Assembly: GCF_055900595.2 (NCBI RefSeq)
Contig: NZ_CM148325.1
Reading direction: 5' to 3' (one strand)
DNA length: 64,000 bases
How positions within the stretch are numbered: the stretch's first letter is position 1; each line of letters opens with the position of its first letter. Below are positions 16,136 through 58,645 of the stretch, piece after piece. Made by a program: the position numbers and the translations under genes. The notes beneath the pieces are model-generated. The model did no database searches, was not told the DNA's origin, and saw only the letters and a list, made by a program, of their open reading frames with translations.

Positions 16136-17296
16136 TTATGCCGGATCGACTGGTACCACATTCTCGCTTGGGTAACAGCCCAGGACTTTCATCGAGCGAG
16201 TGATTTCACCTAGCTCTTTCAACGCCTGTTGCATTTCCGCTGATTCCAGATTGGCCTGAATATCCAGATAAAACATCTCTTCCCACGGGTTTCCGTGAAT
16301 CGGGCGTGATTCCAGACGGGTCATAATCAGACTGTGATTGCGCAGTACCAGCAACGCTTCAACCAGTGCACCAGCATGTTGTCCGGTCGCCATTAACAAC
16401 GTCGTTTTCGCCGGAACCTGGTCAGAAACGTTAATGGCTTTACGTGCCAACACCACAAATCGGGTGAAGTTTTGTCGCTGATTCGCTTCAATACGCTCCA
16501 GTACCTGCAAACCGTACAAAGTGCCGCCAGCTTCGCTTCCCAACGCAGCAACATGCGGTGATTTTGCCTGTGCAACCTTTTCCATTGCCGCAGACGTACT
16601 TTCGGTATATTCAATCTTCCAGTGCGGATAACGATTAAGGAATTTGCTGCATTGCTGGAATGGCTGCGGATGGCTGTAGACCGTATTGATGGCGGATAAA
16701 TCAGTAGTGCCGGAGACCAACAAACAATGATCGATAGTTAACGTCATCTCGCCAACAATCGACAAACTGGTATGTTGCAGCAGATCGTAAACGTCGTTTA
16801 TGGCACCGGAGCTGGTATTTTCAATCGGTACGACGGCATAGTCGGCCTGGCCGGTTTCCACCTGATTAAAAATATCGGCAAATTTGGCGCAGCCACTTTC
16901 AATGAATTGCTCAAAGTGACGCGCAGCGTACTGACGAGCGGCAAGATGTGAATAGGAGCCTTTGGGGCCGAGAAAAGCGATGCGTGCTGAGTGCGGATTA
17001 ATTTGATTGAGATGTTGCTGGAGCAGTGCCTGCTGAGTTAATACGGAATCTTCAATGATGAGCTGGAACAGGCGAGTAATGTAATGGGCGTCCAGATGGT
17101 GCGCTTTACCGAGCGTAATTAATCTTTCCAGCAAATCGCGTTCGCGATCAATATCACGTACCGGGCGATGAGAGAGCAGTTTGGCTTTTCCCACCTCGAC
17201 GGCCAGTTCGCGCCGCTCTGCCAGTAATGCTAATAATTTTTCATCCAGCGCGCTGATTTTCTCTCGCAGCGCCAGTAACGGGTTTTCCGATGTCAT
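16136..17296 (-). CDS. pheA: Bifunctional chorismate mutase / prephenate dehydratase (P-protein)
   Basis: [22 protein letters not shown]... 386 aa. Confidence 0.95.
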
Positions 17297-17318
17297 AGTG
17301 TTGCCTTTTTGTTATCAA

Positions 17319-17349
17319 TAAAAAAGGCCCCCCGGTTTGGGAGGCCTTA
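17319..17349 (-). terminator. pheA attenuator terminator
   Basis: Minus-strand RNA AAGGCCTCCCAAACCGGGGGGCCTTTTTT between pheL and pheA. Confidence 0.8.
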
Positions 17350-17394
17350 TTGTTCGTCTTCGCATTCTGTTTCACACGACGAAACGCCTCCCAT

Positions 17395-17442
17395 TCAGGG
17401 GAAGGTAAAAAAGAATGCGAAGAAAAACGGTGTGTGTTTCAT
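17395..17442 (-). CDS. pheL: pheA leader peptide PheL (15 aa, Phe-rich)
   Basis: Minus-strand ATG at 17442 encodes [15 protein letters not shown]; not in ORF track because it is under 60 aa. Confidence 0.85.
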   Translation of the reverse strand: [15 protein letters not shown]

Positions 17443-17497
17443 GTTTGTTTCCTTAAGTGACTTCAGTACAGTACCCGTACTGTTTTCACGCTGTCAA

Positions 17498-17545: not shown

Positions 17546-17941
<396 letters not shown>

Positions 17942-18120
17942 TCAAAATGTGTGATGGAAATCTCATAATTTTGTCACTTTTTGTCAACGAATCTTTTTTG
18001 TGAGAAATCGCAGGAAGAGGTGTTTTTTTACTTGAGGAATATCTCAAAGCGAGCCATATTTGATGAGATCGATAGTGACTAAATCGCTTCAGTTTCACAA
18101 CTAACAGAATAAAAAAACGG

Positions 18121-18133
18121 CAGCTCAAGGCTG
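18121..18133. repeat. Left copy of the direct repeat flanking the IS4 element (putative target-site duplication)
   Basis: cagctcaaggctg here versus cagctcaagggctg at 19655-19668 (one G difference). Confidence 0.6.
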
Positions 18134-18146
18134 TAATGCCAGTCAG

Positions 18147-18858
18147 TTAAGCAACTGACTGGCTCTTTTTCGGGGCTGTGGGGTATTTCCAGGGCCTCTC
18201 CTTTACCACTCTCGGGAAGGCCCTTTCCCTTCTTGTCGGTAATTTCACTGGTTGTCCCATACTTGCAAGATCGCGCATCAGCTCCGGTATACGTCCCGGT
18301 GAAGCGCATGGCGTCCGTCATCGACGTCAGCAGATGGCTGGTCAGTTCCATCTGGCAGACCATTTTGACCTGCGGGTAGAGCGCCGGGTTCTCGGCATGT
18401 GTCTGGCGGGGGAAGGCTGCATCGTTCTCTGGTGTATCCGGTGTGCGCCAGAACACACCATCGATGGCCAGCAGGGTCAGGCCGCACCAGTGCGGATGCA
18501 GCGTGGCGTTATGCCAGAGCTGCGCTGTTTTCGTGAACACGCGTCGGACAGCCTCACTTCCCAGGCGCTGGCGGGCCTGAATAACGGCACTGGGGGCAAC
18601 GAAGGGGCGATTGCCTGGCAGCATGATGTCCAGGCGATTCACAATCTGGTGAAGAGGTTCTTTACGCTCAAGCGCCATGCCAACAATACACCAGACCATC
18701 ATTTCGAGGGGAAGACGGCGCTTGCGTAGCGTTACAGTACCTGATTCGGCAAGGCAACGAGAGATGAGTTCGGGGTCGAGGTAATCCCCCAGAAAAGTCA
18801 GTGGGTTACGCAGAGAATCGTAACGGGATACCAAATCAAGGGCCTGTCCAATGAGCAT
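18147..18858 (-). pseudogene. IS4 transposase (InsG-like) pseudogene: N-terminal ~175 aa intact, then internal deletions and frameshift
   Basis: MLIGQALDLVSRYDSLRNPL...HLLT then jumps to SMTDAMRF and loses frame; 259-aa ORF versus 442 aa for intact IS4 transposase (length recalled from memory). Confidence 0.75.
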
Positions 18859-18894
18859 AAATAAATATCCTCCGGCATAGCCGGAGGTTTTTCA

Positions 18895-19607
18895 AATGCG
18901 CCTGTAAGGCTCTGTTACCAGCCGCGCCCTAACAGGCGCATACGATCTGACATTTGCATTCAACTTCGTTACTTACGGCCCGTAAACGGGCTGCCCGGAT
19001 ATGGAATCGATAACTGCTCCCCCATTTTATCCTCTTCAAGCTGGTGCTTTATGTAGTCCTGTATCTTCGCCGTGTTCTTACCCACCGTATCGACATAGTA
19101 CCCTCGGCACCAGAACTCCCTGTTTCTGTATTTGAATTTCAAATCCCCAAACTGCTCGTAAAGCATCAGACTGCTTTTCCCTTTCAGATATCCCATAAAG
19201 CCGGATACGCTCATTTTGGGTGGGATTTCCACAAGCATATGGATATGATCTGCGCAGCACTCTGCTTCCAGAATCCGTACGCTTTTCCACTCACACAGCT
19301 TTCTCAAAATACTGCCTATCGCCCTACGCTTCTCTCCGTAAAACGCCAGTCTTCGGTATTTCGGCGCAAAAACTATGTGATATTTACAGTTCCAGCGGGT
19401 GTGCGCTAAGCTCTTTTCGTCCCCCATTGGGACCCCCTTTTGATTTCTTGTTTGACACTTGCAGTTGCCAGACCGCAAGGTGTTTTAACAAATCAAAAGG
19501 GGTTTTAATAACTGGCTCAAAGCTGAAAGCTTTCCGGAACCCCCAGCCTAGCTGGGGGTTTTCTGTGCACAAAAAAATCCGGAAACGAGTGAGCGTTTCC
19601 GGATTCT
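18895..19607 (-). mobile_element. IS200-like element (IS200/IS605 family), approx. 0.71 kb, boundaries +/- ~20 bp
   Basis: Contains Y1/HUH transposase tnpA, a terminator-like perfect palindrome near the left end (19577-19603), a 5'-UTR palindrome (19540-19558) and a 10-bp inverted repeat after the stop (18896-18905 / 18932-18941); extent inferred from expected IS4 leader length. Confidence 0.7.
18969..19427 (-). CDS. tnpA: IS200 transposase TnpA (Y1 HUH single-strand transposase)
   Basis: MGDEKSLAHTRWNCKYHIVFAPKYRR...HIHMLVEIPPK... 152 aa; the HxH (HIHML) motif is directly visible; ORF-track start at 19478 is an upstream extension. Confidence 0.9.
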   Translation of the reverse strand: MGDEKSLAHTRWNCKYHIVFAPKYRRLAFYGEKRRAIGSILRKLCEWKSVRILEAECCADHIHMLVEIPPKMSVSGFMGYLKGKSSLMLYEQFGDLKFKYRNREFWCRGYYVDTVGKNTAKIQDYIKHQLEEDKMGEQLSIPYPGSPFTGRK

Positions 19608-19654
19608 TACACAGCCACTGAATCGGTCAACTGATCCTTAACTGATCGGCATTA

Positions 19655-19668
19655 CAGCTCAAGGGCTG
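19655..19668. repeat. Right copy of the direct repeat flanking the IS4 element
   Basis: cagctcaagggctg; with the left copy reconstructs an uninterrupted aaaaaaacggcagctcaagggctgccgttttttt terminator hairpin. Confidence 0.6.
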
Positions 19669-19692
19669 CCGTTTTTTTATTTCAATCTTCTG

Positions 19693-20430
19693 TTATGTAT
19701 TGCTGCTGTTAGCAGCGATAATCTTCGCTACCTTTTCAGCTTGCGCATTCATCTGCATCTGACGGTATGCATTTTCCATCAGCGGCAGCGCATCACGCGT
19801 AGCCTGGGTATCCGGATAGTCGCGCAACATGCCTTCTACGCGGTTAACGACAGCAACCCATGCACCACGTTCTGTATAATACTCGGCAACGGAGTATTCA
19901 TATTTCGCCAGACGATCTTTCAGGAATACCAGACGTTTGGTGGCATCGGTGGTGTACTGACTGTTCGGATAGCCGCGCACCAGTTTGGAAAAGTCACTAA
20001 ACGCAGCTCGTGCATGTTGAGGATCGCGATCGCTACGGTCAACGCCAAAGAACCCTTGCAGCGCACTGTCATCCAGCGCCATATTGGTCAGGCCACGCAT
20101 GTACATGACATAATCGATATTCGGATGGGTCGGGTTAAGGCGAATAAAACGATCGATGGCAGCCTGTGCTAACGGCAAATCGGCGTTTTTATAGTAGGCG
20201 TAGATGAGATCCAGCTGCACCTGCTGCGAATACGGACCAAACGGATAGCGATTATCTAACGCTTCCAGTTGCGTTATTGCCTGTCTCCAGTTACCGTCCT
20301 GCAGCTTTTGTTGTGCAGTCGCGTAAATTTCATTTGGCGGATTATCAGGTACTTCTTCCTTTGACCCCGAGCAACCCGCCAAAAACAGGCTTAGTGTGGC
20401 GGCTGCCACCAGATATTTCATGCGCGTCAT
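19693..20430 (-). CDS. bamD: Outer membrane protein assembly factor BamD (YfiO) lipoprotein
   Basis: [22 protein letters not shown]... 245 aa, TPR-like. Confidence 0.95.
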
Positions 20431-20564: not shown

Positions 20565-21545
20565 ATGGCACAACGAGTACAGCTCACTGCAACGGTGTCC
20601 GAAAACCAACTCGGTCAACGCTTAGATCAGGCTTTGGCCGAAATGTTCCCGGATTATTCACGTTCGCGAATAAAAGAATGGATCCTCGACCAGCGCGTGC
20701 TGGTTAACGGCAAAGTTTGTGATAAGCCGAAAGAAAAAGTATTGGGTGGCGAGCAGGTGGCCATCAACGCTGAGATTGAAGAAGAAGCGCGTTTTGAACC
20801 GCAGGATATCCCGCTGGATATCGTCTATGAAGATGAAGATATCATCGTCATTAATAAACCACGCGACCTGGTGGTACATCCTGGCGCGGGTAACCCGGAT
20901 GGCACGGTACTGAATGCGTTGCTTCATTATTATCCGCCCATTGCCGATGTACCGCGTGCGGGCATCGTCCATCGTCTGGATAAAGACACCACCGGCCTGA
21001 TGGTTGTGGCAAAAACCGTTCCGGCTCAGACGCGTTTAGTCGAATCTTTGCAACGGCGTGAAATTACTCGTGAGTATGAAGCGGTGGCAATTGGTCATAT
21101 GACCGCTGGCGGTACAGTAGATGAACCAATCAGCCGCCACCCGACCAAACGTACTCACATGGCGGTGCATCCGATGGGTAAACCGGCGGTCACTCACTAT
21201 CGCATCATGGAACACTTCCGTGTGCACACGCGTCTGCGGTTGCGTCTGGAAACCGGACGTACGCACCAGATCCGCGTGCATATGGCCCATATCACTCATC
21301 CGCTGGTGGGCGATCCGGTTTATGGCGGCCGTCCGCGTCCGCCAAAAGGTGCTTCGGAAGCGTTTATCTCCACGCTGCGTAAGTTTGACCGCCAGGCGCT
21401 TCATGCAACCATGCTGCGTCTTTATCACCCGATCTCCGGCATCGAAATGGAATGGCATGCGCCTATTCCACAAGATATGGTGGAGCTGATTGAGGTGATG
21501 CGCGCCGATTTCGAAGAGCATAAGGATGAAGTGGACTGGTTATGA
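20565..21545 (+). CDS. rluD: 23S rRNA pseudouridine synthase RluD
   Basis: 326 aa, S4 domain plus HRLDKDTTG catalytic motif. Confidence 0.95.
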   Translation: MAQRVQLTATVSENQLGQRLDQALAEMFPDYSRSRIKEWILDQRVLVNGKVCDKPKEKVLGGEQVAINAEIEEEARFEPQDIPLDIVYEDEDIIVINKPRDLVVHPGAGNPDGTVLNALLHYYPPIADVPRAGIVHRLDKDTTGLMVVAKTVPAQTRLVESLQRREITREYEAVAIGHMTAGGTVDEPISRHPTKRTHMAVHPMGKPAVTHYRIMEHFRVHTRLRLRLETGRTHQIRVHMAHITHPLVGDPVYGGRPRPPKGASEAFISTLRKFDRQALHATMLRLYHPISGIEMEWHAPIPQDMVELIEVMRADFEEHKDEVDWL

Positions 21546-25417: not shown

Positions 25418-26959
<1,542 letters not shown>

Positions 26960-27044
26960 CCTTAAAGAACTGTTCTTTGCAGTGCTCACACAGATTGTCT
27001 GATAGAAAGTGAAAAGCAAGGCGTCTTGCGAAGCAGACTGATAC

Positions 27045-27120
27045 GTCCCCTTCGTCTAGAGGCCCAGGACACCGCCCTTTCACGGCGGTAACAGGGGTTC
27101 GAATCCCCTAGGGGACGCCA
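27045..27120 (+). tRNA. gltW: tRNA-Glu (UUC) in the 16S-23S spacer
   Basis: GTCCCCTTCGTCTAGAGGCCCAGGACACCGCCCTTTCACGGCGGTAACAGGGGTTCGAATCCCCTAGGGGACGCCA. Confidence 0.97.
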
Positions 27121-27314
27121 CTTGCTGGTTTGTGAGTGAAAGTCGCCGACCTTAATATCGTTAAAGATGACTTACGAGTCATGTTTAAGATATTTGCTCT
27201 TTAAAAATCTGGATCAAGCTGAAAATTGAAACACTGAACAATGAAAGTTGTTCGTGAGTCTCTCAAATTTTCGCAACACGATGATGAATCGAAAGAAACA
27301 TCTTCGGGTTGTGA

Positions 27315-30219
<2,905 letters not shown>

Positions 30220-30312
30220 ACAACGCCGAAGATGTTTTGGCGGATTGAGAGAAGATTTTCAGCCTGATACAGATTAAATCAGAACGCAGAAGCGGTCTGA
30301 TGAAACAGAATT

Positions 30313-30432
30313 TGCCTGGCGGCCTTAGCGCGGTGGTCCCACCTGACCCCATGCCGAACTCAGAAGTGAAACGCCGTAGCGCCGATGGTAGTGTGGGGTC
30401 TCCCCATGCGAGAGTAGGGAACTGCCAGGCAT
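30313..30432 (+). rRNA. rrfG: 5S ribosomal RNA
   Basis: TGCCTGGCGGC...GGAACTGCCAGGCAT, 120 nt. Confidence 0.97.
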
Positions 30433-57019: not shown

Positions 57020-57114
57020 TCAAACCAGTTTTTTCACCAACGCTTCACTATGACGAATACGTTCTGGTGCCAGCTCCAGATCCTGCTGAATCAGCGCAAT
57101 GAACAGTAAATCCG
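57020..57114 (-). pseudogene. yfhH: Displaced 3' end of yfhH (last ~28 codons) separated from the gene body by IS1
   Basis: Joining minus-strand sequence across the IS1 plus one TSD copy restores an in-frame tail ...LFIALIQQDLELAPERIRHSEALVKKLV*. Confidence 0.7.
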
Positions 57115-57129
57115 GGTAATGACTCCAAC

Positions 57130-57633
57130 TTATTGATAGTGTTTTATGTTCAGATAATGCCCGATGACTTTGTCATGCAGCTCCACCGATTTTGAGAACG
57201 ACAGCGACTTCCGTCCCAGCCGTGCCAGGTGCTGCCTCAGATTCAGGTTATGCCGCTCAATTCGCTGCGTATATCGCTTGCTGATTACGTGCAGCTTTCC
57301 CTTCAGGCGGGATTCATACAGCGGCCAGCCATCCGTCATCCATATCACCACGTCAAAGGGTGACAGCAGGCTCATAAGACGCCCCAGCGTCGCCATAGTG
57401 CGTTCACCGAATACGTGCGCAACAACCGTCTTCCGGAGCCTGTCATACGCGTAAAACAGCCAGCGCTGGCGCGATTTAGCCCCGACATAGCCCCACTGTT
57501 CGTCCATTTCCGCGCAGACGATGACGTCACTGCCCGGCTGTATGCGCGAGGTTACCGACTGCGGCCTGAGTTTTTTAAGTGACGTAAAATCGTGTTGAGG
57601 CCAACGCCCATAATGCGGGCAGTTGCCCGGCAT
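57130..57633 (-). CDS. insB: IS1 InsB reading frame (expressed as InsAB' transposase by -1 frameshift)
   Basis: 167-aa ORF overlapping insA 3' end in the -1 frame. Confidence 0.9.
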
Positions 57634-57827
57634 CCAACGCCATTCATGGCCATATCAATGATTTTCTGGTGCGTACCGGGTTGAGAAGCGGTGTAAGTGA
57701 ACTGCAGTTGCCATGTTTTACGGCAGTGAGAGCAGAGATAGCGCTGATGTCCGGCGGTGCTTTTGCCGTTACGCACCACCCCGTCAGTAGCTGAACAGGA
57801 GGGACAGCTGATAGAAACAGAAGCCAC
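57552..57827 (-). CDS. insA: IS1 protein InsA
   Basis: [43 protein letters not shown]... 91 aa. Confidence 0.93.
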
Positions 57828-57877
57828 TGGAGCACCTCAAAAACACCATCATACACTAAATCAGTAAGTTGGCAGCA

Positions 57878-58645
57878 TCACCGTAAATCCGTTAACATTC
57901 CCTGAGCGTGACAAGCAGAGATTGCAGCACTGTTTGTCGCTTGTTCTTCGGCAATGGTATACAGGCAATGAGAAGCACGCTGTTGCAGGGCATTGGGAGT
58001 AAAGCCGGTAATCGCCAGCACTTTTCCGCCCACTCGCAGCATCTCATCTGCCGCCAGGTTTAACTCGCGTCGTACACCGGTGTAGGAAATGGCTAATAAC
58101 AGATCGTCAGGGGACGACGCCTGTACTGTAGCGAGTAGCGCATGCATATCGCGCACTGCGGCAGCATTGAAGCCAATCTTCATCAGCTTCCAGGCAAAGT
58201 TTTGCGCCACCAGACCCGAAGCGCCAATACCGGTCAGAATTATCCGCCGTGCAGAGCGCAACATTGTTACGCATTCATGCAGTTTCTCTTCACTATTAAC
58301 ATTTAGCGTTGCGTACATAGCGGCAGTATTTTCTTTAATCAGTTTTTCGCCGACCAGCCGTAACGGATCATCACCGCGGATTTGGTTATGAATGGGCACG
58401 GAGGGAGATTCCGGCTGGCTTGCCAGCGCTTCACTCAACGCCAACTTAAGTGCCGGAAAACCTTTATAGCCGAGTTTTTGCGCGAACTTCACGACGCTGG
58501 ACTGACTGACTCCGGCTTCGTTGGCCAGTTGCTGAGAGCTTAAATGGCGCGCCGTATCAGGTTGTAGCAGCAGATAGTCCGCCAGTTTTTTATCACTCTG
58601 GGCAAGCCCCTGGTAACGCTGACGGATACGAAGTAAGCCGTTCAT
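57878..58645 (-). pseudogene. yfhH: RpiR-family (HTH + SIS domain) regulator YfhH, C-terminally truncated by IS1
   Basis: MNGLLRIRQRYQGLAQSDKKLADYLL... reads ...GMLTDL then enters IS1 and stops after one codon (R*). Confidence 0.8.

What the first reader, a model, noticed from the sequence alone, without database searches (positions are those of the whole stretch)
18121..19668. Degenerate IS4 with a nested IS200-like element, inserted in the loop of the bamD/raiA terminator hairpin
IS4-type inverted repeats (16/18 identical) bracket a 1.5-kb block containing an IS4 transposase remnant and a complete IS200-type tnpA. The flanks are direct repeats (cagctcaagg[g]ctg) and, joined, reconstruct a perfect bidirectional terminator aaaaaaacggcagc-tcaagg-gctgccgttttttt. 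The IS therefore split the intrinsic terminator between bamD (essential BAM subunit) and raiA. A nested IS-in-IS at this site is not recalled in K-12 MG1655, so it is a useful strain marker and may alter bamD 3'-end formation and read-through into raiA.
Basis: partly seen in the sequence, partly recalled or inferred. Interest (0 to 1): 0.55.

Follow-up and report, generated by a model that had tools for sequence, protein, structure and literature searches.

The report
Dead IS4 carrying IS200 in bamD terminator
Two well-known jumping genes sit one inside the other in the transcription stop signal after the E. coli bamD gene: ordinary in kind, but this stop signal proves to be a repeatedly used landing site for IS4 (about 7.5% of complete E. 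coli genomes).

Summary
Window 18134-19654 (1521 bp) is an IS4 with 18-bp terminal inverted repeats (16/18). It is flanked by a 13/14-bp target duplication (18121-18133, 19655-19668) centred on the loop of the bamD terminator hairpin. K-12 and about 5000 other E. coli genomes have the site empty.

The IS4 is a fossil of 809 bp. Two internal deletions (281 and 336 bp), each between short direct repeats, destroyed the transposase. A complete 712-bp IS200 (18859-19570, minus strand, intact 152-aa TnpA) lies between IS4's own 5' hairpin plus T7 run and the IS4 start codon.

Three genomes carry the same 809-bp fossil without IS200. The likely order is therefore IS4 insertion, then the deletions, then IS200.

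The nested form occurs in 8 of 5426 complete E. coli genomes. IS4 in this terminator is common, though: 336 genomes in this orientation and 70 in the other, with 12-, 13- and 14-bp duplications. It is a recurrent hot spot.

IS4 generally lands in a GC hairpin followed by a T tract (48 independent flanks). IS200 lands directly after a terminator's T tract (10 of 10 contexts). The families and mechanisms are known. Effects on bamD and raiA are predicted to be small and were not tested.

The parts
18111..18133 (.). raiA-side half of the split bamD terminator: A7 (18111-18117), cgg, then the left copy of the target duplication cagctcaaggctg (18121-18133, 13 bp, one G short)
   Evidence: empty-site comparison with K-12 (L005) and N1420 (L009)
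18134..18858 (-). IS4 remnant, left segment (725 bp). It includes the 18-bp left inverted repeat (18134-18151), an inward-facing hairpin followed by TCTTTTT (18138-18163, plus strand), and the transposase pseudogene. The pseudogene's ATG is at 18858-18856; the N-terminal ~180 aa are kept and the frame is lost after that.
   Evidence: 97-99% identity to K-12 IS4; NF033592, residues 25-180 only; PGAP: IS4 family transposase, frameshifted; terminator-like hairpin
18296..18307 (.). Deletion junction 1. 281 bp of IS4 were lost between the direct repeats CCGGTGAAGCGC (IS4 163-174) and CCGGGGAAGCGC (IS4 444-455). The deletion is not a multiple of three, so it shifts the frame.
18325..18338 (.). Deletion junction 2. 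336 bp of IS4 were lost between two exact 14-bp direct repeats CGTCAGCAGATGGC (IS4 473-486 and 809-822).
18859..19570 (-). Complete IS200 (712 bp; on its own strand 5'-GTGCACAG...GGATATTTATTT-3'). It has no inverted repeats and made no target duplication. It sits exactly between IS4's T7 run and the IS4 transposase ATG.
   Evidence: L007 reads CATAAAAAAATCCGG uninterrupted; the window has 712 extra bp; 99.7% identity to the copy in L017, 96% to IS200C copies
18969..19427 (-). IS200 tnpA, an intact 152-aa Y1 (HUH) transposase. HIH lies at residues 61-63 and tyrosines at 110, 111 and 125.
   Evidence: NF033573, 144 bits against cutoff 55; WP_000502112.1
18869..18887 (-). IS200 right-end hairpin CCTCCGGCTATGCCGGAGG followed by ATATTTATTT (terminator-like, downstream of tnpA)
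   Evidence: -15.9 kcal/mol
19437..19560 (-). IS200 left-end regulatory region. It holds the Rfam STnc490 (art200 / tnpA 5'UTR) match and the left-end terminator hairpin cccccagc-cta-gctggggg (19539-19557).
   Evidence: 146 bits, E 5e-31; -18.7 kcal/mol; PMC4513863 (terminator at IS200 nt 12-34, 5'UTR stem-loop, art200)
19571..19654 (-). IS4 remnant, right segment (84 bp). On the minus strand it holds the 18-bp right inverted repeat (19637-19654), a promoter-like TTGACC-16-AAGAAT (19630..19603), and the hairpin AATCCGGAAAC-8-GTTTCCGGATT (19605..19576) followed by the T7 run (19577..19571).
   Evidence: -24.1 kcal/mol
19655..19678 (.). bamD-side half of the split terminator: right copy of the target duplication cagctcaagggctg (19655-19668, 14 bp), then ccg and T7 (19672-19678). 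The bamD stop codon is at 19693-19695.

Best explanation
This is a three-step fossil record of transposition into transcription terminators.

Step 1 (shown). IS4, a DDE cut-and-paste element, inserted into the intrinsic terminator downstream of bamD. It cut 13-14 bp apart around the hairpin loop and duplicated CAGCTCAAGG(G)CTG. The site fits IS4's target preference, a GC-rich palindrome with A's about 3-5 bp to one side of the duplication and T's to the other (AAA-N20-TTT). That fit explains why the same terminator has been hit repeatedly in E. coli.

Step 2 (shown). Two slippage-type deletions between short direct repeats inside IS4 (281 and 336 bp) destroyed the transposase, leaving an 809-bp remnant with both ends intact. 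These genomes hold no other IS4 right end, so nothing can move the remnant.

Step 3 (insertion shown, order inferred). A resident IS200, a single-strand Y1/HUH transposon that makes no duplication, inserted exactly after the T7 run that follows IS4's own 5' hairpin. IS200 copies in general sit directly after the T tract of a co-oriented terminator, and IS4's 5' hairpin plus T7 looks like one.

Consequence (inferred, untested). bamD, IS200 tnpA, the IS4 pseudogene and raiA are all co-oriented. bamD transcripts should now end at the IS4 hairpin plus U7, whose U7 run ends about 85 nt past the old termination point, with the IS200 left-end terminator as a backup. The raiA promoter region (18134 down to 17888) is untouched. 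The insertion is therefore probably close to neutral.
For: Anatomy.

Empty site:
- K-12 and N1420 have the uninterrupted terminator.
- 5041 of 5426 genomes match the reconstructed site in one piece.

Recurrence at the bamD terminator:
- The junction of IS4 right end to the bamD flank is in 336 genomes.
- The opposite orientation is in 70 genomes. L016 was checked and has a 1426-bp IS4 with a 14-bp duplication.
- Duplication variants are 14/14 bp (L010, L013), 12 bp (L011) and 13/13 bp (L012, L008).

IS4 target rule:
- Among 48 distinct right flanks from metagenome contigs, C is at +1 in 75% and at +4 in 79%, G dominates +9 to +14, and T is 58-90% at +16 to +21 against 23-31% in controls.
- TTTT starts at +10 to +22 in 32 of 48 flanks against 32 of 365 controls.
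- The K-12 IS4 site, the fiu site and the bamD site all fit AAA-N20-TTT.

Order of events:
- The 809-bp remnant without IS200 is found in L007, H92 and L008.
- The remnants differ from each other at 5-10 of 809 positions, and from full-length copies at 5-13 of 809 (10-13 for the window and L007 copies, 5-10 for L008).

No other IS4 right end: places_in_record is 1 for the eight genomes.

IS200 target:
- In 10 of 10 contexts the left end GTGCAC is directly preceded by a hairpin plus T run.
- There were three independent hits in the same IS4 T7 run: after T7 in the window (a different IS200 subtype), after T7 in L003, and after T5 in L002.

Replacement terminators. The IS200 left-end terminator is experimentally documented (PMC4513863).
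Against: - The two copies of the duplication differ by one G (13 against 14 bp), so a later slippage or a recombination event has to be assumed.
- IS200/IS605-family elements excise precisely. The IS200-free remnants could in principle be excision products rather than the ancestral state.
- Termination at the IS4 hairpin plus U7 is predicted only. The simple terminator scan did not list that hairpin on the minus strand, although folding gives -24.1 kcal/mol followed by U7.
- I did not show that the other roughly 16 IS200 copies in the same genome are of the same subtype.
- The AAA-N20-TTT rule for IS4 is recalled from Mayaux et al. 1984. I could not retrieve that paper. Support here comes from my own flank analysis.
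Confidence: 0.88

Rival explanations
1. An already nested IS4::IS200 composite transposed as one unit into the bamD terminator, using the outer IS4 ends. The internal deletions came later, and the IS200-free remnants arose by precise IS200 excision.
For: - Full-length IS4 with IS200 at the same T7 run exists at other loci and is bounded by IS4 target duplications, for example in fiu (L003: 2137 bp, 12-bp duplication).
- Y1 transposons excise precisely (family knowledge).
Against: - The IS200 in the window is a different subtype from the IS200C in those composites (96% identity, against 99.7% to a free-standing copy in L017).
- Only 11 genomes have IS200 at this position in IS4 at all.
- The same 809-bp remnant without IS200 occurs in three genomes, one of them with a clearly different right flank (L008).
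- The eight genomes have no other IS4 right end.
Confidence: 0.07
2. The recurrent IS4 occupancy of this terminator reflects selection rather than target preference. In this view the insertion is kept because it changes bamD 3'-end processing or raiA expression to the cell's benefit.
For: - About 7.5% of complete genomes are occupied, in both orientations.
- The insertion persists as a fossil with 0.6-1.6% divergence.
- All four reading frames in the window are co-oriented, so read-through into raiA is geometrically possible.
Against: - The site matches the general IS4 target profile very well: CAGC at +1 to +4 and the T run starting at +18, the profile's peak. Preference alone is a sufficient explanation.
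- IS4 carries inward-facing terminator-like hairpins at both ends, and the raiA promoter region is intact.
- No expression data are available.
Confidence: 0.1
3. The block is an assembly or chimera artefact rather than a real genomic arrangement.
For: None beyond the general risk with repeated elements.
Against: - Eight independently sequenced complete genomes carry the identical 2001-bp stretch at 100% identity.
- Intermediates without IS200 exist.
- The junctions show the expected target duplication.
Confidence: 0.01

Closest known systems
IS4 of E. coli K-12 (insG; 1426 bp; IS4 family, DDE transposase)
   Same: - 18-bp terminal inverted repeats, identical at the left end and 16/18 between the two ends.
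- 97-99% nucleotide identity over all retained segments.
- A target duplication of IS4-like length.
- A target of the AAA-N20-TTT type.
   Different: - Only 809 of 1426 bp are retained.
- Two internal deletions leave the transposase reduced to its N-terminal ~180 aa and then out of frame.
- It carries a foreign IS between its 5' hairpin plus T7 run and its start codon.
- The duplication is 13/14 bp and imperfect, at or just above the 11-13 bp I recall for IS4.
IS200 (Salmonella, 707 bp) and E. coli IS200C; IS200/IS605 family, Y1 HUH transposase
   Same: - Size 712 bp, with no inverted repeats and no target duplication.
- Left-end terminator hairpin at about nt 12-34.
- The 5'UTR region matches STnc490 (art200).
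- TnpA is 152 aa with an HUH motif (PMC4513863).
   Different: - It is a subtype about 4% divergent from IS200C. PGAP names it only 'IS200/IS605 family transposase'.
- It is nested in another IS.
Elements that home to terminators or extragenic palindromes: group IIC introns inserting just after intrinsic terminators; IS1397, ISKpn1, ISPpu9 and ISPpu10 in REP sequences (recalled from the literature; ISPpu9 in REPs is stated in PMC8450116)
   Same: The target is recognised largely by a hairpin-forming sequence in an intergenic region. Insertions therefore avoid coding sequence and accumulate, sometimes nested, at the same sites.
   Different: IS4 is a DDE element that cuts on both sides of the loop and duplicates it. 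IS200 lands after the T tract. Neither is a retroelement or an IS110/IS3-family REP specialist.
[quoted passage not shown]
   Same: My 10 of 10 IS200 contexts and the IS4 hairpin plus T7 upstream of its start codon are instances of that pattern.
   Different: The preprint reads the pattern as limiting transposase expression. Here the point is that one IS's protective terminator serves as the landing site for another IS, in both directions: IS200 into the IS4 terminator, and IS4 into the IS200 hairpins.

Membership tests
IS4 (IS4 family insertion sequence) | Terminal inverted repeats of the IS4 type (TAATGCC...) | tested here: met
   18134-18151 and 19637-19654 match at 16 of 18 positions. Both ends match the K-12 IS4 ends.
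IS4 (IS4 family insertion sequence) | Direct target duplication of about one helical turn (11-13 bp recalled for IS4; 'about 10 bp' for the family in PMC2266710) | tested here: met
   The window has 13 and 14 bp copies differing by one G. The same site in other genomes shows clean 12-, 13- and 14-bp duplications.
IS4 (IS4 family insertion sequence) | Intact DDE transposase with the YREK motif | tested here: not met
   Only residues 25-180 match NF033592 (120.8 bits, cutoff 115). Deletions of 281 and 336 bp and a frameshift follow, and PGAP marks it 'frameshifted'. It is a dead derivative, not an autonomous member.
IS4 (IS4 family insertion sequence) | Nucleotide identity to the reference element | tested here: met
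   97-99% identity over all four retained segments; 12 differences in 809 bp from K-12 IS4.
IS200 (IS200/IS605 family, IS200 group) | Y1 HUH transposase TnpA of about 150 aa as the only ORF | tested here: met
   152 aa; NF033573, 144.4 bits against cutoff 55; HIH at residues 61-63.
IS200 (IS200/IS605 family, IS200 group) | About 707 bp, with no terminal inverted repeats and no target duplication | tested here: met
   Comparing the occupied site (window) with the unoccupied site (L007) shows a clean 712-bp insertion with all seven T's of the run conserved.
IS200 (IS200/IS605 family, IS200 group) | Left-end terminator hairpin and structured 5'UTR with the antisense sRNA art200/STnc490 | tested here: met
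   Rfam RF01405, 146.4 bits against gathering score 56; hairpin -18.7 kcal/mol. The features are as described in PMC4513863.
IS200 (IS200/IS605 family, IS200 group) | Transposition activity | not testable with these tools
   There are about 17 matching places in the same genome against a median of 2 across genomes, which suggests past activity only.
Rho-independent (intrinsic) terminator of bamD | GC-rich stem-loop directly followed by a U tract on the sense strand, downstream of the stop codon | tested here: met
   The reconstructed site has an 8-bp stem, a 6-nt loop and U7, 24 nt after the bamD stop; -27.9 kcal/mol in context. The K-12 version gives -19.7.
Rho-independent (intrinsic) terminator of bamD | Measured transcript 3' ends at the U tract | not testable with these tools
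   No expression data were available, and no paper in the library was found on it.

The most novel reading that the evidence does not exclude
Intrinsic terminators act as shared 'safe harbours' that IS4 and IS200 both seek. Because each element carries its own protective terminator, each is a preferred landing site for the other.

The counts behind this reading:
- IS200 in the T7 run of IS4: three independent events.
- IS4 in the IS200 left-end hairpin: 319 genomes.
- IS4 in an IS200-like right-end hairpin: 7 metagenome contigs.
- IS4 in the bamD terminator: roughly 7.5% of E. coli genomes, from at least three independent events.

If this holds, nesting is a predictable outcome of terminator-homing rather than an accident. 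IS4 would also replace the terminator it destroys with its own inward-facing ones, which would make such insertions nearly neutral. As far as I could find, neither point has been described for IS4.
Probability: 0.45. Interest if true: 0.45.

Novelty: new member of a known kind. Interest (0 to 1): 0.3.

Why it matters
For this window it matters little. Both elements are textbook insertion sequences, the IS4 is dead, and PGAP already annotates the arrangement in eight RefSeq genomes.

As a marker, the 809-bp remnant plus IS200 identifies a narrow E. coli lineage (8 of 5426 complete genomes). The remnant alone adds three more. A simple 'IS4 at bamD-raiA' PCR would not be lineage-specific, because the site is hit repeatedly.

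The wider point could interest people who work on mobile elements. One terminator next to an essential gene is occupied by IS4 in about 7.5% of genomes, in both orientations. IS4 and IS200 also use each other's terminators as landing sites. That offers a concrete model for how insertion sequences persist at low cost and why nested IS structures form.

Tried and rejected
- **IS200 boundaries.** I first read a 17-bp IS4 stretch (nt 1336-1352) on both sides of IS200 as a duplication made by IS200. Comparison with the IS200-free remnant L007 and with free-standing IS200 copies showed it is only A/T-run ambiguity plus the IS200 ends. IS200 is 712 bp and made no duplication.
- **Composite transposition.** I considered that IS4::IS200 moved as a unit. 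This is unlikely for the reasons given under the rival explanations.
- **Literature.** Searches for IS4 target specificity (AAAN20TTT, Mayaux) and for IS4 at bamD, raiA, yfiO or yfiA found nothing relevant in the held library. The Mahillon and Chandler review is not held. The IS4 family paper PMC2266710 gives only family-level duplication lengths.
- **Rfam.** The Ysr202 hit at 18800-18892 scores 29.9 bits against a gathering score of 315 and is noise over the IS200 right-end hairpin.
- **Terminator scan.** The simple scan did not report the IS4 5' hairpin on the minus strand. I relied on folding instead.
- **Not attempted.**
  - A phylogeny of the 406 occupied genomes.
  - Typing of the window's lineage.
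  - Listing all IS200 copies in the same genome, because the search tool returns one place per record.
Full report
**Setting.** The window is an E. coli core-genome segment (smpB to purL) in the reverse of K-12 orientation. It is 99.93% identical to strain Z0117EC0005. Around the finding, the genes are:
- pheA, 16136-17296, minus strand
- the Phe leader, 17318-17443
- raiA, 17546-17887, minus strand
- bamD, 19693-20430, minus strand
- rluD, 20565-21545, plus strand

bamD lies upstream of raiA and is co-oriented with it.

- The sequence from 18134 (TAATGCCAGTCAGTTAAG...) to 19654 (...CTTAACTGATCGGCATTA) is bounded by IS4-type 18-bp inverted repeats that match at 16 of 18 positions.
- It is flanked by cagctcaaggctg (18121-18133) and cagctcaagggctg (19655-19668).
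- Removing the element and one repeat copy gives aaaaaaacggcagctcaagggctgccgttttttt. K-12 and strain N1420 have exactly this hairpin uninterrupted between bamD and raiA.
- 5041 of 5426 complete E. coli genomes match the reconstructed empty site in one piece.
- The hairpin has an 8-bp GC-rich stem and a 6-nt loop, and on the bamD sense strand U7 follows it, 24 nt past the stop codon. Folding gives -27.9 kcal/mol for this lineage and -19.7 for the K-12 version.
- The 'perfectly bidirectional' A7/T7 form is peculiar to this lineage. Most E. coli read gccgttttgtgtttc on the bamD side.

**Anatomy of the insert (1521 bp).** Aligned to K-12 IS4 (1426 bp; L006 91-1516), the element keeps the following:
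- IS4 1-174
- a 31-bp island around IS4 456-486
- IS4 about 823-1344
- the last 84 bp

Two internal deletions removed the rest:
- 281 bp between CCGGTGAAGCGC and CCGGGGAAGCGC (junction at 18296-18307)
- 336 bp between two exact copies of CGTCAGCAGATGGC (junction at 18325-18338)

What remains of the transposase is its N-terminal ~180 residues followed by a frameshift (PGAP: 'frameshifted').

Between the IS4 start codon (CAT at 18856-18858 on the plus strand) and the A7 run (19571-19577) lies a 712-bp IS200 on the minus strand (18859-19570). Its features are:
- an intact 152-aa TnpA (18969-19427; NF033573, 144 bits; HIH motif)
- the left-end terminator hairpin (19539-19557)
- the structured 5'UTR, matched by Rfam STnc490 at 146 bits
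- a right-end hairpin (18869-18887)

These agree with the published description of IS200 (PMC4513863).

**Order of events.**
- Strains EC42405 (L007), 2020CK-00188 (H92) and RMDEC465 (L008) carry the same 809-bp doubly deleted IS4 at the same site without IS200. They read CATAAAAAAATCCGG where the window has the 712 extra bases.
- No bases were duplicated or lost at that point, as expected for a Y1 transposon.
- The window's IS200 is 99.7% identical to a free-standing copy elsewhere (L017) but only 96% identical to the IS200C copies found inside full-length IS4 elements at other loci.
- The eight genomes with the nested form have no second IS4 right end, but about 17 places match the IS200-containing query.
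- The remnants differ from one another at 5-10 of 809 positions. The window and L007 copies differ from full-length IS4 copies at 10-13 positions, and L008 at 5-10.
- The simplest history is an old IS4 insertion, then two deletions, then a later IS200 insertion from the resident IS200 population. Precise excision of IS200 from the three IS200-free genomes cannot be excluded without a phylogeny.

**The site is a hot spot and not a unique event.**
- The junction 'IS4 right end + bamD-side half terminator' is present in 336 of 5426 complete genomes.
- The opposite-orientation junction is present in 70. I verified this in strain ST866, which has a full 1426-bp IS4 with a 14-bp duplication.
- Most of these are full-length, intact IS4 copies.
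- The duplications differ between lineages: 14 bp (L010, L013, L016), 12 bp (VR50, L011) and 13 bp on both sides (L012, L008).
- Two orientations and different cut spacings mean at least three independent insertions into the same 20-bp target.
- Only the degenerate form (11 genomes), and within it the IS200-bearing form (8 genomes), is lineage-specific.

**Why this site.**
- I recalled that IS4 prefers AAA-N20-TTT targets (Mayaux et al. 1984, not retrievable here) and tested it independently.
- An exact search for the IS4 right end in metagenome contigs gave 89 loci and 48 distinct right flanks.
- Counting from the IS end, C dominates at +1 (75%) and +4 (79%), G at +9 to +14, and T reaches 58-90% at +16 to +21 against 23-31% in control positions from the same contigs.
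- A TTTT run starts at +10 to +22 in 32 of 48 flanks against 32 of 365 controls.
- Many flanks are evident terminator halves, for example cggcacctggtgccgttttttt and ccctcttcggaggggctttttttt.
- The bamD site (CAGC at +1 to +4, T run from +18), the K-12 IS4 site (duplication ATCTTGGTTCTG) and the fiu site all fit AAA-N20-TTT.
- IS4 therefore seeks a GC hairpin followed by a T tract, and the bamD terminator is a near-ideal example.

**Why IS200 sits where it does.**
- In ten independent contexts the IS200 left end (GTGCAC...) is directly preceded by a stable hairpin and a T run. This is the intrinsic terminator of a co-oriented upstream gene: cof, pta, tRNA-Asp, htpX, tkt and others.
- IS4's right end carries just such a structure on the transposase sense strand: AATCCGGAAAC-8-GTTTCCGGATT followed by T7 and then the ATG (-24.1 kcal/mol).
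- IS200 has entered that T run at least three separate times: after T7 in the window (a distinct subtype), after T7 in L003/H11 (IS200C, in an IS4 inside fiu), and after T5 in L002.
- This arrangement is rare overall, in 11 genomes.
- The reverse nesting is common. IS4 sits inside the IS200 left-end terminator hairpin (duplication CAGCCTAGCTG) in 319 genomes.
- Seven metagenome contigs show IS4 in an IS200-like right-end hairpin.
- L002 is a three-level nest: a truncated IS200 containing an IS4 that contains an IS200C.

**Likely consequences (inferred).**
- The original bamD terminator is split. Each half keeps only a 4-bp mini-stem.
- A bamD transcript entering the element meets the complete IS4 hairpin plus U7, whose U7 run ends about 85 nt further on, and then the IS200 left-end terminator. 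Both form in the predicted fold of the 181-nt read-through RNA (z-score -4.9).
- A promoter-like TTGACC-16-AAGAAT in the IS4 right end (19630..19603) would start transcription inside the 5' arm of that hairpin. Only read-through transcripts would then carry the whole terminator. This is a reading of the sequence and is not tested.
- In the other orientation, transcripts would meet the IS4 left-end hairpin followed by TCTTTTT.
- IS200 tnpA is followed by its own right-end hairpin. The raiA promoter region, 246 bp between the IS and the raiA ATG, is unchanged.
- The insertion is therefore probably close to neutral, which fits its frequency. No expression data were available.

**Comparison with what is known, and novelty.**
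- Both elements are members, one of them dead, of thoroughly described families (see the membership table). The arrangement is already annotated by PGAP in RefSeq genomes.
- I found no description in the searchable literature of the bamD terminator as a recurrent IS4 site, or of the reciprocal use of each other's terminators by IS4 and IS200.
- I rate the finding a new instance of a known kind, with modest interest (0.3).

Noticed in passing
window 57115-57882 (duplication 57106-57114 and 57883-57891): A 768-bp IS1 (InsA and InsB ORFs, ends GGTAATGACTCC...GCATCACC) with a 9-bp duplication gtaaatccg interrupts the 3' end of yfhH, a MurR/RpiR-family regulator. It is absent from the otherwise 99.93%-identical strain Z0117EC0005.
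   Followed up: partly
L004 3197-4622; L002 2667-4802; 319 genomes: IS4 is frequently inserted in the left-end terminator hairpin of IS200, with an 11-bp duplication CAGCCTAGCTG. This is the reverse of the nesting seen in the window. L002 is a three-level nest: truncated IS200 > IS4 > IS200C.
   Followed up: partly
metagenome loci L027, L033, L036 and four others: The IS4 right end abuts cggctataccggagg-tatatttatt, which looks like the right-end hairpin of an IS200-like element. IS4 may therefore target both IS200 hairpins.
   Followed up: no
L017-L022, L002-L004, window: In 10 of 10 contexts examined, the IS200 left end lies directly after the hairpin plus T run of a co-oriented upstream terminator (after cof, pta, tRNA-Asp, htpX, tkt and others). 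This suggests IS200 homes to the 3' edge of intrinsic terminators.
   Followed up: partly
window 19669-19692: The spacer between the terminator and the bamD stop codon (ccgtttttttatttcaatcttctg) differs at several positions and by one indel from the form in K-12, B2 strains and nearly all other genomes (ccgttttgtgtttcaggtttctg). I saw this variant only in genomes that also carry the IS4 remnant (the 8 nested genomes, EC42405 and probably 2020CK-00188).
   Followed up: partly
window 19603-19630, minus strand: A promoter-like TTGACC-16-(TG)-AAGAAT sits in the IS4 right end. Its predicted start falls inside the 5' arm of the IS4 hairpin, so IS4's own mRNA would escape the hairpin plus U7 that would stop read-through transcripts.
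   Followed up: no
window 25419-30431, plus strand (coordinates converted): A complete rRNA operon (16S, tRNA-Glu, 23S, 5S) lies between clpB and kgtP, as in the K-12 rrnG region. Nothing unusual was seen.
   Followed up: no
window 18800-18892, plus strand: A weak Rfam hit to Yersinia sRNA Ysr202 (29.9 bits against a gathering score of 315) overlaps the IS200 right-end hairpin. It is most likely noise, or reflects IS1541/IS200-derived sequence in that family's seed.
   Followed up: no
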